From positions 37,744-101,743 of the IMG/VR virus record IMGVR_UViG_3300045902_000666: 64,000 bases of DNA, one strand, 5' to 3'. This DNA is from a virus. The notes under the pieces were generated by a model. That model did no database searches. It was not told where the DNA came from and saw only the letters and a program-made list of their open reading frames with translations. Shown here one piece after another: positions 29,516-32,690 of this stretch. The first letter of the stretch is position 1, and every line of letters begins with the position of its first letter. The position numbers and the translations under genes are program-made.

Positions 29516-31111
29516 TTAATCTAACTTAGAGTAGTTATTGATTGTGTTAATCAAAACATTCTTGTCTTGCTCTGCAACCTTCATAAGGTCAAAAACTTTT
29601 TCAGAGAAACCAGCTAAGGTTATAACTCTTTCGCCTTTGAACTGAAGTGTTGGAGAACCTTGCAAGTCAAAGTTATATACGAATGGGTTACATCCATATT
29701 TTGACTTATATTGGTTCAAGTATGTTTGACTAGCATCCATTTGCTGCCAAGCTTCACCGTCAGAAAGAATAATCAATCTGTCGTATTTCTTGTTCAACTT
29801 TTGGAAGAATGCGTGATAGCTTGTACCACCCATATTCTTATGATTGAACTGCTTGTTAATTGTGAATATACTATCTCTCAAAGAGAAGTTAGTATATTCA
29901 GCTGCTGTACCGAACAATACAACATCAGCGTTATTAGACTTAGCTAAGATAGCTGCAAACAAACCACCAATTTGTGTTGGTCTTCCGCTCATAGAGCCAG
30001 AACGGTCATAAATAACACAGGTTTCACCTGGTAATTTTGGAACGTTCTCGCAAGCGATTTCAATTGCATCTTCAAGAGCTTGAACAATTTTTCTTGATTC
30101 CTTGGAACCAAATTTGTTAATCTCTTCAATTGCAGTTGTGAATCTGAATGGAAGAACCAAAGAGTTTCTAATTAACTTAACATCAACCAAAAGTGCACAT
30201 GCTTCATCTACAAGCTCTGGAGCTTGAGTCATGATGTTTCTTAAGTTCTTCAAAAGAGCCATGTAACTGATTTTTCTAGTCTTAATCAAAGATGCCCAAG
30301 CCTCCTTTTTCAATTCATCTTTTTCATCTTCTGATTCAGCTTTCTTACCAGCTTCAGACAACTTAGCTTCCCAAGTTTGAGTGTTCTTAAGAGCACCAAT
30401 CATCAAAGCCTCAATAGCATTGATTGGGTATGTTTCTTTCTTAGAAGCTTTAACTTTTTTAATCAAAGCTTTTAATTCTGCAACTCTTTCTTTATTCTTT
30501 CTTGCGGTAGCATTTTCCAAAGAAGCATTTAATGTTTCTAGGTACTCTGCTCTATCAACTTCAACCATACCGTTATGCTCTACGTAAGATGGGTGAACGA
30601 TATTAGCAACGTCAATCAAGGAAATTTCTTTACCTTCACCACGATATTTAGCTAATTGATAAGCATCAAATTTTTCGAATGCTTTAGCAAAACCTTTCTT
30701 TAAAGAGTTTGGCAATGACTTATTTTTCTTGTTACCGAAGTAAACAGAGATAATTTCAGTCATGTCATCTGGTCTACGTACAACTTGTGCATAGAACTCT
30801 TTACCCCAAGGCTGACCAGAAATATACTTAGCAAGCTCTGCTCCTAATACGTGAGTAATAGAACGCATACCGAACTCGTTTCTTGCATAAATAGCTGCCT
30901 TAGCTGCAAATTTTGCATCTACTTTAGATAAGCAAGCAGACATTCTGTTAAGAGTATCATTGCTTGTTCTGTAGAACTGGTCCTCAACAAAAGATGTTAA
31001 AAGGATAGTAACCAATTCTAATTCTGCAGACTTTGTGTAAGCCTGACCACCTGCATAATTCACTGTTGGAATTCCTGAGGTTGGAGTTTTTTTGGTGTTG
31101 AACTTTGACAT
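29516..31111 (-). CDS. TROVE-domain (Ro60/Rsr-like) RNA-binding protein with vWA domain
   Basis: N.AGG.AY, YARNEFGMRS, FDAYQLAKY, TWE..LS, YMALLKNLRN, VLPFRF; vWA MIDAS DRSGSM...SDGE. Confidence 0.9.
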   Translation of the reverse strand: MSKFNTKKTPTSGIPTVNYAGGQAYTKSAELELVTILLTSFVEDQFYRTSNDTLNRMSACLSKVDAKFAAKAAIYARNEFGMRSITHVLGAELAKYISGQPWGKEFYAQVVRRPDDMTEIISVYFGNKKNKSLPNSLKKGFAKAFEKFDAYQLAKYRGEGKEISLIDVANIVHPSYVEHNGMVEVDRAEYLETLNASLENATARKNKERVAELKALIKKVKASKKETYPINAIEALMIGALKNTQTWEAKLSEAGKKAESEDEKDELKKEAWASLIKTRKISYMALLKNLRNIMTQAPELVDEACALLVDVKLIRNSLVLPFRFTTAIEEINKFGSKESRKIVQALEDAIEIACENVPKLPGETCVIYDRSGSMSGRPTQIGGLFAAILAKSNNADVVLFGTAAEYTNFSLRDSIFTINKQFNHKNMGGTSYHAFFQKLNKKYDRLIILSDGEAWQQMDASQTYLNQYKSKYGCNPFVYNFDLQGSPTLQFKGERVITLAGFSEKVFDLMKVAEQDKNVLINTINNYSKLD

Positions 31112-31184
31112 AATTTTTGTCTTTTTAAAAGTTAAACTTTGTTTTGTTTTTGTTTTTATATGTTAATTTAGGACATATACAAAT

Positions 31185-31219
31185 AAAAAAGGGATACCGT
31201 TTTGCAACAGTATCCCTTC
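31185..31219 (-). terminator. Intrinsic terminator after the ncRNA array
   Basis: AAGGGATAC/GTATCCCTT hairpin with T-run on the minus strand. Confidence 0.75.
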
Positions 31220-31226
31220 TAAAGCT

Positions 31227-31302
31227 TTGCGGGATTGATGATGTGGGTGTCTTTTTTGAAATTTTCAGAATTTTCGAAGTAACCCAGTATCTTGCCACAC
31301 AA
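31227..31302 (-). ncRNA. Y-RNA-like stem-loop, unit 1
   Basis: TTGTG-TGGCAA-GATAC-TGGGT-TACTTCG...AAAAAAGAC-ACCCA...ATCC-CGCAA. Confidence 0.65.
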
Positions 31303-31373
31303 TTTCCTACGGTCAGGCTAACAAAAAACAGCCGAAACTGTTCAGGGTATTGCCATCCCGTTTATATAACTTT

Positions 31374-31446
31374 AGTAGGGATAAGTACAGTGAGTGTCTT
31401 TTTTGTAATAAGCATTTACGAAGTAACTCAACCGTTTGCCACTACT
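31374..31446 (-). ncRNA. Y-RNA-like stem-loop, unit 2
   Basis: AGTAG-TGGCAA-ACGGT-TGAGT-TACTTCG...AAAAAAGAC-ACTCA-CTGT..ATCC-CTACT; covaries with unit 1. Confidence 0.65.
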
Positions 31447-31480
31447 TAATATCAATATGTTTAAAGAACTAAAGGAACAA

Positions 31481-31508
31481 TTATACGCAAATATACGAAA
31501 AAGGTTCC
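31481..31508 (-). promoter_or_regulatory. ECF-like promoter followed by boxA-like GTTCTTT (31463-31469)
   Basis: GGAAC-N16-CGTATAA directly upstream of RNA units 2 and 1. Confidence 0.7.
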
Positions 31509-31537
31509 ATAAAAATCAATTTTTTTTTAAAATTTTT

Positions 31538-32260
31538 TTGAGGGATTGGTGTAGAGAGTATTGTGAACTACCCGTTGCCTAAAGGCGAAGGGGCTTCAAA
31601 TAGAGGTAAATGAGAATATCACTTACATATTTTGAACTTTTCGTACTTCAACGATTCCTTTTCTCTGACAAGTCAGAGTTGTGCAGGACATCTCGATACG
31701 CTCAACAGGTCGTCCCAAACCTTGAACTTAATTCGCACAAATATTTTAATATGTTTGAAGGTTTTACGGAAACACAATTTTGTTTCCAACCAAAATACCT
31801 CAAAGAACTTATTTGCAAATATACAACAATTATTTCAAAATGCAAGTGATATTAGGAGGTCGCTTACATCCCCTTGCCTAAAGGCGAAGGGGTTTTACGC
31901 TCAAATAGATAAAAAATTTTGGACGTTGGGATAGTTTGGTTAAGCGACATCAATTTATCCTTACGCATAAAGTTTAGAGATTTACTGTAAGGTATGACCG
32001 TATACGTTTTAAGTCTATATACATCGACTGTAGCTTAGTAAGGTCAGCTAACTTTACCCTACGCTTTAGGATTCGTAACTCCCACATGGCTTTTGTAGTC
32101 ACAGAAAAAGCGTGAACCGTTTCTGCCCTCTAATCAGCTTCACAGGAATGGCCTCCACTGATTAAACCGTACAACTTCATTAGACTTTCATCCTCCATTA
32201 TACAGCTTGTTTTCATGATATTTGTTTATACGAAGTATCTCAAACACCTTGCCACAACAT
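31538..32260 (-). ncRNA. Y-RNA-like unit 3 with ~320-nt structured insert, interrupted by a MITE
   Basis: 5' TGGCAA-GGTGT-TT-GAGA-TACTTCG (32231-32254) pairs with 3' TCTC-T-ACACC-AATCCC (31542-31557). Confidence 0.55.
31563..31908 (-). mobile_element. IS605-type MITE without ORF (ends, promoter, omega-RNA-like segment)
   Basis: Ends resemble element 18731-20043 (GTGAACTACCC; GGTCGCTT.CATCCC); TTGCCTAAAGGCGAAGGGG at both ends; inserted 3' of TTTAT. Confidence 0.75.
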
Positions 32261-32444
32261 TTCCAAAATTTCAATTACTCAAAGAACAATCATTATATAT
32301 AGTTGCAAATTTATAAAATCTTATGAATATAGAAAAATTTTTTTCATTTTTTTTATAAGTTGCTGATAATCAGATAGAAAAATTTTTTTTAATTTATTTT
32401 TACCTAACAAAAACACGACTCTATTTATTAATAAACTTTATCTT

Positions 32445-32690
32445 ATGAAAGAAGGCGGAGAAGAAACTAAAGAAAAAATCATTTCACCAAACCCTAAAGA
32501 CGGTGAAGTATACGAATTTGGCTACTTAATCGGAGTTATTTTAGATTATTATGAATCTTCTAAAAGTAAAGTAGAAGATGGTGAAGCATGGAAAAAAGGA
32601 ACTGTTTATGAAGAAAGAATAGTTCCCGAAGAAATTGATTCACATATCAAAAGAGCATTTGCAAAGCAGCTGAATAAATTTTGCAAATAA
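32445..32690 (+). CDS. Hypothetical protein
   Basis: 81-aa ORF with TATTTAT upstream. Confidence 0.5.
   Translation: MKEGGEETKEKIISPNPKDGEVYEFGYLIGVILDYYESSKSKVEDGEAWKKGTVYEERIVPEEIDSHIKRAFAKQLNKFCK

What the first reader, a model, noticed from the sequence alone, without database searches (positions are those of the whole stretch)
31227..32260. Array of three covarying Y-RNA-like RNAs upstream of a phage TROVE/Ro60 gene
Seen: three units share the unpaired motifs TGGCAA, TACTTCG and ATCCC, while the stems change compensatorily. Inner stem: GGGT/ACCC, GAGT/ACTC, GAGA/TCTC. Middle stem: GAT/ATC, ACGG/CTGT, GGTGT/ACACC. Outer stem: TTGTG/CGCAA, AGTAG/CTACT. Units 2 and 1 have an upstream promoter and share a terminator before the TROVE gene. 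Established: bacterial Ro60/Rsr genes neighbour Y RNAs that bind through a bulged terminal helix and carry variable effector loops. The conserved motif here differs from the canonical GGUCCGA Y-RNA box. Inference: a distinct Ro60-RNA family used by the phage, perhaps in RNA repair or decay or as counter-defence.
Basis: partly seen in the sequence, partly recalled or inferred. Interest (0 to 1): 0.85.

Follow-up and report, generated by a model that had tools for sequence, protein, structure and literature searches.

The report
Phage Y RNAs beside Ro60 gene
The three repeated RNA units upstream of this large phage's Ro60 (TROVE) gene are real, covarying small RNAs, but they belong to the already described bacterial and phage Y RNA family (YrlA/YrlB type) and lack its tRNA-like part, so this is a solid new example of a known system rather than a new RNA class.

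Summary
Observation confirmed. Three units lie on the minus strand upstream of a TROVE/Ro60 gene (29516-31111). They share one scaffold: an outer stem, a bulged U, a 2-bp RG/CY step, a CAA box, two variable stems and the junction UUACUUCG.

A covariance model built from short units finds the scaffold within 8-550 nt upstream, on the same strand, in 74 of 81 related phage TROVE loci. In the matched units 93% of cells are paired, against 45-53% in slid controls, and all 15 pairs show compensatory changes.

The "distinct family" reading is not supported.
- In relatives, and in this phage's own genome outside the window, the same scaffold carries the T-arm, acceptor-like hairpin and D-arm module of YrlA. 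Rfam RF02553 matches these below its threshold.
- The box and UUAC correspond to the published GNCGAA and YUAY features.

The window's two short units are YrlB-like or phiLo-Yrl-like forms without that module. Unit 3 is one RNA of about 720 nt. Its scaffold strands pair across a 322-nt interior and a 346-nt IS605-type MITE that a relative lacks.

The likely function is as Ro60-bound adaptor or gate RNAs. Binding and transcripts are untested. This scan has reported similar Ro60 RNA arrays on other DNA.

The parts
29516..31111 (-). Ro60/TROVE gene (531 aa) with a vWA domain
   Evidence: Pfam TROVE 4.2e-21, plus weak Ro60-vWA. The best solved relative is Thermus phage phiLo phiRo60, 9KOP/9L5Y, E 3e-14. 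There are 3148 homologues at E<=1e-30.
31227..31302 (-). Y RNA unit 1, a short form without a tRNA-like module (76 nt)
   Evidence: Model R1 43.6 bits, E 1.8e-6. Only 2 substitutions in relatives, one of them turning a G-U pair into G-C (31299), against about 31 changes in the adjacent 60-nt spacer.
31374..31446 (-). Y RNA unit 2, a short form (73 nt) with a small hairpin at the place of the V arm (GUAA-AUGCUUA-UUAC)
   Evidence: Model R1 51.1 bits, E 5.9e-8.
31538..32258 (-). Y RNA unit 3: scaffold strands (32258-32231 and 31557-31538) enclosing a long interior
   Evidence: 9 complementary base pairs in the family's architecture. They form in the minimum-energy fold, with pair probabilities 0.79-0.96. 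A relative's contig keeps both strands and the 322-nt interior.
31909..32230 (-). 322-nt interior of unit 3. It has no tRNA-like motif and no sequence likeness to the 210-290-nt interiors of other phages.
   Evidence: Rfam gives nothing at E<10. An nhmmer profile of the long class matches only the scaffold. Folding z-score -0.19. About 96-99% conserved in relative X6.
31563..31908 (-). IS200/IS605-type MITE without an ORF, inserted in unit 3. It has left-end and right-end hairpins (31895-31870, 31596-31571) and an internal promoter-like box.
   Evidence: A relative's contig has 81 other letters in its place. The end words GGGATGWAAGCGACCT and GGGTAGTTCAC occur otherwise only at the ends of TnpB elements.
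32306..32313 (-). Promoter-like -7 box TAAATTTG before unit 3
   Evidence: Read from the sequence. Repeat family D1. The consensus is from my own knowledge of Bacteroidota promoters.
31488..31495 (-). Promoter-like -7 box TATATTTG before unit 2
31323..31342 (-). Weak hairpin plus U6 after unit 2; not conserved in relatives
31187..31220 (-). Intrinsic terminator (15-bp stem plus U run) after unit 1, 75 nt before the TROVE start codon
   Evidence: With the terminator included the folding z-score is -3.26. L129 has the same terminator.

Best explanation
The three units are phage-encoded Y RNAs of the bacterial YrlA/YrlB scaffold type. Each folds so that its 5' and 3' ends form a stem made of an outer helix, a bulged U, a 2-bp RG/CY step and an internal loop. 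That loop carries the CAA/CGA box on the 5' strand, which is the equivalent of GNCGAA (bacteria) and GGUCCGA (animals).

By analogy with Xenopus Ro60, Deinococcus Rsr and Thermus phage phiRo60, the Ro60 ring encoded 75 nt downstream binds this stem on its outer face. The bound RNA then gates the ring's cavity and can bridge it to a host exoribonuclease such as PNPase.

The interior of the RNA is an exchangeable module.
- Units 1 and 2 carry only a small hairpin.
- Unit 3 carries a 322-nt interior and has also been invaded by an IS605-type MITE.
- A further copy elsewhere in the same genome carries the full tRNA mimic.

Shown here: the scaffold, its covariation, its linkage to TROVE genes and its homology to YrlA. 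Inferred: transcription as discrete RNAs, binding to the Ro60 protein and the downstream partner.
For: - The motif occurs 3 times against 0 expected.
- Model R1 gives 108 hits in 570 kb, all on the TROVE strand. 74 of 81 loci have a hit 8-550 nt upstream, and only one hit lies elsewhere.
- 93% of cells are paired against 45-53% for slid partners. 15 of 15 pairs have compensatory changes. No shuffle out of 500 reaches the covariation score.
- The same scaffold encloses T-arm/AS/D-arm modules in relatives. These match Rfam YrlA at 33-52 bits. Xanthomonas phage MET23-P3 and Gordonia phage Neville have arrays of the same kind.
- The phage's own genome has a full YrlA-like copy with the UGGCAA...AUCCC scaffold and a fourth short unit.
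- The published features GNCGAA and YUAY fit the positions seen here.
- Phage phiRo60, the closest solved relative of this protein, binds two short Y-like RNAs encoded upstream of its gene and forms complexes with host PNPase (PMC12135203).
- In relatives the units are conserved while the spacer between them diverges.
Against: - There is no transcript or binding evidence; no RNA run holds the stretch.
- The window's box is GGCAA(G/A), not GNCGAA.
- Units 1-3 do not match Rfam YrlA or Y_RNA even at E<10.
- Single-unit folding energies are not better than shuffles (z -0.26 and -0.75).
- Only two of the four phiRo60 residues reported to contact Yrl2 align with the same residue here: the KK pair matches, and the two Arg residues do not.
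- Unit 3's outer helix is weak and the unit is interrupted by a MITE, so it may not be functional.
Confidence: 0.8

Rival explanations
1. The units are cis-acting leader elements of the TROVE mRNA, for example autoregulatory binding sites for the Ro60 protein or attenuators, and not free-standing RNAs.
For: They always lie upstream on the same strand, 8-550 nt from the start codon. I saw no clear promoter between the terminator at 31187 and the ATG.
Against: A strong terminator separates unit 1 from the gene. Scaffold copies also lie 62-64 kb away, in a tRNA cluster of the same genome. Related RNAs of this family in M. smegmatis and Salmonella are stable Rsr-bound RNAs.
Confidence: 0.1
2. Units 1 and 2 are decayed remnants of tRNA-mimic YrlA genes that lost their module and no longer function. 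Only the full YrlA-like copy elsewhere in the genome is active.
For: The window units lack the T, AS and D arms. A full copy exists at G000:C1:5782-5930.
Against: Short units are the commonest class across the clade. They keep their stems through compensatory changes. In relatives they are conserved while the spacer beside them decays. Short Y-like RNAs of phage phiLo bind phiRo60.
Confidence: 0.07
3. Unit 3 is not one RNA. Its two halves are unrelated, and their complementarity is an accident of MITE insertion or duplication.
For: The halves are 720 nt apart, with an internal promoter-like box at 31816-31823 and a weak outer helix.
Against: The 9 bp have the family's exact spacing and order. 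They form in the minimum-energy fold of 725 nt and of 379 nt. A relative without the MITE keeps both halves. Interiors of 210-360 nt closed by the same scaffold are common in related phages.
Confidence: 0.15

Closest known systems
Bacterial and phage YrlA Y RNAs (Rfam RF02553; Chen et al. 2014, PMC4201824)
   Same: Encoded next to Ro60 on the same strand. The 5' and 3' ends pair in a stem with a GNCGAA-like 5' box. UUAC (the published YUAY) sits at positions 21-24. Sister loci and this phage's own genome carry the same scaffold with the T/AS/D tRNA mimic.
   Different: The three window units have no tRNA-like module and do not match RF02553. Their box reads GGCAA rather than GNCGAA.
YrlB (Salmonella, M. 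smegmatis) and Yrl1/Yrl2 of Thermus phage phiLo (PMC12135203)
   Same: Short Y-like RNAs without a full tRNA mimic. They are encoded upstream of the Ro60 gene, several per locus. The phiLo protein is the closest solved relative of this one.
   Different: phiLo Yrl1 and Yrl2 were defined by a CGAA motif and RNAfold. I could not compare their sequences here. Binding and PNPase recruitment are shown for phiLo and only inferred here.
Metazoan Y RNAs (Rfam RF00019)
   Same: A stem formed by the RNA's two ends, with a single-nucleotide bulge and a conserved 5'-strand box, plus a variable interior.
   Different: No sequence or model match. The box is GGUCCGA, and the bulge and its context differ.
IS200/IS605 MITEs (ORF-less derivatives of TnpB elements)
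   Same: The 346-nt insert in unit 3 has subterminal hairpins. It shares end words with the TnpB copy at 18736-19911 and is absent from a relative.
   Different: It sits inside a non-coding RNA gene. Whether it makes a guide RNA was not tested.

Membership tests
Y RNA (Ro60-associated ncRNA class) | Encoded close to a Ro60/TROVE gene, usually on the same strand | tested here: met
   The units lie 116-1147 nt upstream of the TROVE start codon on the same strand. 74 of 81 related loci show the same arrangement.
Y RNA (Ro60-associated ncRNA class) | The 5' and 3' ends pair into a stem that carries a conserved 5'-strand box (GGUCCGA or GNCGAA) | tested here: inconclusive
   The stem, bulged U and covarying step are met. 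The box here is GGCAA(G/A). Across the clade it is YRA, mostly CGA or UGA, so it resembles GNCGAA but is not identical.
Y RNA (Ro60-associated ncRNA class) | Physically bound by the Ro60 protein | not testable with these tools
   This needs EMSA or co-immunoprecipitation.
YrlA (RF02553) | Internal tRNA-like domain (T arm, acceptor-like hairpin, D arm) | tested here: not met
   No RF02553 or tRNA match in 31000-32500 at E<10 and no tRNA there. The feature is met by another copy in the same genome, G000:C1:5782-5930 (33.7 bits).
YrlA (RF02553) | Conserved YUAY about 22-25 nt from the 5' end, opening the interior | tested here: met
   UAC is invariant at alignment columns 22-24, preceded by U or A (UUAC in units 1 and 2, AUAC in unit 3), in 39 short units. 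The published feature is cited.
YrlA (RF02553) | Score at or above Rfam's gathering threshold (69 bits) | tested here: not met
   Even the tRNA-like units of this phage clade reach only 33-52 bits.
YrlB / phiLo Yrl-type short Y RNAs | Scaffold with the box but a simple interior, co-located with other Y RNAs upstream of Ro60 | tested here: met
   Units 1 and 2.
IS200/IS605 MITE (insert in unit 3) | Subterminal imperfect hairpins at both ends, ends shared with a TnpB element, and presence/absence polymorphism | tested here: met
   Hairpins as repeat D6. An 11-mer and a 16-mer end word are shared only with TnpB elements. A relative lacks the segment. Whole-end local alignment scores were not above shuffles.

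The most novel reading that the evidence does not exclude
In large phages of this clade, one conserved Ro60-binding scaffold is a plug-in handle for interchangeable interiors. These are a small hairpin only, a T arm only, a full tRNA mimic, a conserved 210-290-nt domain, or the window's unrelated 322-nt interior. A single Ro60 ring would then be aimed at several different partners by a set of 3-5 co-encoded Y RNAs. The large interiors would be an undescribed class of Y RNA effector modules.
Probability: 0.3. Interest if true: 0.6.

Novelty: new member of a known kind. Interest (0 to 1): 0.38.

Why it matters
Ro60-Y RNA particles are well studied in animals and in a few bacteria, but their role in phages is barely known. 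There is one biochemical study, on Thermus phage phiLo.

This locus, and the roughly 280 related IMG/VR loci found with it (81 examined here), show that large phages commonly encode a Ro60 together with several Y RNAs on one strongly covarying scaffold. The work gives a precise scaffold consensus and a working covariance model.

That makes it possible to annotate these RNAs, which Rfam currently misses. It also lets one ask by experiment what the module-less and large-interior forms do.

Tried and rejected
- Rfam scans of the window (gathering threshold) and of 31000-32500 (E<10) gave no Y RNA, YrlA or tRNA match for the units.
- A gapped 14-base pattern scan of IMG/VR returned mostly chance hits and was not used.
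- blastn of the region against GenBank phages found nothing.
- No RNA holder was listed among public runs. This says nothing about expression.
- I considered that a second Y RNA starts at the internal promoter (about 31757). I rejected this once the segment proved to be a MITE.
- I tested whether unit 3's interior belongs to the 210-290-nt long class of other phages. An nhmmer profile matched only the scaffold.
- The interior does not fold better than shuffles (z -0.19).
- Local alignments of the MITE ends to the TnpB element did not beat shuffles as whole alignments. The case rests on exact end words and on position.
- No supplementary alignments of Chen et al. 2014 are held.
- Two early paper searches timed out.

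Full report
**What is there**

The ORF at 29516-31111 (minus strand, 531 aa) is a Ro60-type protein.
- Pfam gives TROVE at 4.2e-21, plus a weak Ro60 vWA match.
- Its best solved relative is the Ro60 of Thermus phage phiLo (9KOP/9L5Y, E 3e-14). Xenopus Ro60 appears only weakly, at E 0.047.

The window is part of a 101,743-bp IMG/VR virus record estimated to be 37% complete. It carries genes typical of large phages: ribonucleotide reductase, a UvrD helicase with an intein, two TnpB genes, a ClpB-like ATPase and a tRNA cluster.

**The observation**

- Unit 1 is 31302->31227.
- Unit 2 is 31446->31374.
- Unit 3 has its 5' strand at 32258->32231 and its 3' strand at 31557->31538.

The gapped motif GTGGCAA-N8-13-TACTTCG occurs three times in the window and never in 100 shuffles. 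Units 1 and 2 fold identically.

The fold shows that the "unpaired" motifs are partly paired. The T of TGGCAA is a bulge. GG pairs with the CC of ATCCC. CAA faces A(U) in an internal loop.

**Family-level evidence**

The TROVE protein has thousands of homologues. With an alignment of 29 of them, IMG/VR gave 281 related loci, of which 80 were fetched. Nearly every one has one to four copies of ...RGYRA-N8-10-(G)AGWTACTTCG just upstream of the gene.

A covariance model (R1) built from 39 short units scored units 2 and 1 at 51.1 and 43.6 bits. Over 570 kb of loci it gave 108 hits at E<0.01, all on the TROVE strand.
- 74 of 81 loci have a hit 8-550 nt upstream of the start codon.
- Only one hit lies elsewhere, downstream of the gene.

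On the model-fitted alignment:
- 93% of cells form pairs, against 45-53% when partners are slid by 1-3 columns.
- All 15 pairs show double changes.
- No shuffle out of 500 reaches the covariation score. The alignment is fitted to the model, so it leans towards the structure. RNAalifold on the plain MAFFT alignment already gave 13 of 15 covarying pairs.

R1 also finds the scaffold upstream of much more distant TROVE genes, including two crAss-like phages.

Contigs of close relatives in estuary and sludge metagenomes show 2 substitutions in each of units 1 and 2. One of them turns a G-U pair into G-C. The 60-nt spacer between the units has about 21 substitutions and 10 indels.

**What it is**

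The same scaffold in sister phages encloses a T arm (GGTTCGAATCC type), a closed acceptor-like hairpin and a D arm (TAGCTCAGTTGGTAGAGC type), in that permuted order. That is the architecture of YrlA.

- Rfam's YrlA model RF02553 matches these units below its threshold, at 33-52 bits and E 3e-9 to 1e-3. It does the same for arrays upstream of the Ro genes of Xanthomonas phage MET23-P3 and Gordonia phage Neville.
- Chen et al. 2014 define bacterial Y RNAs by a 5' GNCGAA(N0-1)G box and a conserved YUAY at nt 22-25 that opens the interior. In the units the box (GGCAA/GCGA) and UUAC sit at those positions.
- The phage's own genome, outside the window, holds a full YrlA-like RNA with the very same UGGCAA...AUCCC scaffold (G000:C1:5782-5930, RF02553 33.7 bits).
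- It also holds a fourth short unit, 5 nt upstream of a tRNA-Asn.

The units are therefore YrlA/YrlB-type Y RNAs, not a separate family. Units 1 and 2 are the module-less form. They keep only a small hairpin where the V arm sits (loop AUGCUUA in unit 2, against AUGCUAA in tRNA-like relatives).

This resembles YrlB, and also Yrl1 and Yrl2 of phage phiLo. Those two are short RNAs encoded upstream of phiRo60. They bind it and, with host PNPase, form RYPER-like complexes that damp PNPase activity (PMC12135203).

**Unit 3**

Its two scaffold strands are 720 nt apart, yet they pair in the minimum-energy fold of the whole RNA. Without the insert described below, their pair probabilities are 0.79-0.96. 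Interiors of 210-360 nt closed by the same scaffold are common in related phages.

The window's 322-nt interior (31909-32230):
- shows no sequence likeness to those interiors,
- has no Rfam match,
- has no unusual folding energy,
- is well conserved in a relative.

The segment 31563-31908 is an insertion.
- A relative's contig has 81 other letters in its place.
- It carries two copies of a bulged hairpin.
- Its end words GGGATGWAAGCGACCT and GGGTAGTTCAC occur elsewhere in the genome only at the left and right ends of TnpB elements. The right-end word overlaps the tnpB stop codon at 18736-19911.

It is therefore an ORF-less IS200/IS605-type MITE. This explains the internal promoter-like box and the sequence I had first taken for another Y RNA start. 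Whether unit 3 still works is open.

**Expression signals**

Bacteroidota-type -7 boxes (TAnnTTTG, from my own knowledge) precede units 3 and 2. A weak hairpin plus U6 follows unit 2. A strong terminator follows unit 1 and is shared with the closest structural analogue, L129. No transcript data exist.

**Mechanism**

Established knowledge of Ro60 and Y RNAs is that the ring binds the 5' strand of the terminal stem on its outer face. The RNA then gates the central cavity and tethers partners, PNPase in Deinococcus and in phiLo.

The conserved, sequence-specific part here is the bulged U, the RG/CY step, the YRA box and UUACUUCG. This is the likely protein-contact surface, and the variable stems only need to pair. 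This step is inferred. Of the four phiRo60 residues implicated in Yrl2 binding, the KK pair aligns with KK here and the two arginines do not.

**Novelty**

The system is a new member of a known kind. Earlier notes of this scan report comparable Ro60 RNA arrays in other phages. The points of some interest are:
- the explicit scaffold consensus,
- the breadth of the family in large phages,
- the range of interiors,
- the MITE inside a Y RNA gene.

Noticed in passing
G000:C1:5782-5930 (minus strand; outside the window, L209:429-577): A full YrlA-like Y RNA with the same UGGCAA...AUCCC scaffold plus V arm, T arm, closed acceptor-like hairpin and D arm. It lies inside a tRNA cluster about 64 kb from the TROVE gene. 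RF02553 gives 33.7 bits, E 6e-7.
   Followed up: partly
G000:C1:6854-6925 (minus strand; L209:1501-1572): A fourth short scaffold unit (R1 43.4 bits), ending 5 nt before a tRNA-Asn(GTT) gene. This suggests co-transcription and processing with tRNAs.
   Followed up: partly
window 31563-31908: An IS200/IS605-type MITE inside Y RNA unit 3. If it makes a TnpB guide RNA, the flank after its right end (the would-be guide) is the 3' scaffold strand of the Y RNA. This was not tested.
   Followed up: partly
L131-L143, L149, L181, L202 and others, about 2130-2420 (alignment A4): A conserved 210-290-nt Y RNA class directly upstream of TROVE in many large phages. It has the scaffold ATAGCGATAG..GAGATACTTCG, the internal block GGTGAAAAAGTCCGG and the 3' block GGCTAAATT. 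It has no Rfam match and no tRNA-like arms.
   Followed up: partly
window 32262-32296, 31449-31475, 31790-31806; L129 and L128 upstream of their units: A shared leader word GTTCTTTGAG/GTTCCTTTAG lies 25-40 nt before each unit, after the -7 box. It may be a start site or a processing signal.
   Followed up: no
window 20277-20348 and 18736-19911, 25429-26568: A suppressor-type tRNA with anticodon CTA, and two TnpB (IS605 OrfB) genes. A third copy of the right-end word lies at G000:C1:17691.
   Followed up: no
L212:1800-2420 (Xanthomonas phage MET23-P3) and L210:1640-2080 (Gordonia phage Neville): Unannotated arrays of 4-5 scaffold units (GGTGGTG..GTTACTTC..TTCCCC) upstream of the Ro-like genes. 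In the Gordonia phage they lie under small annotated hypothetical ORFs.
   Followed up: partly
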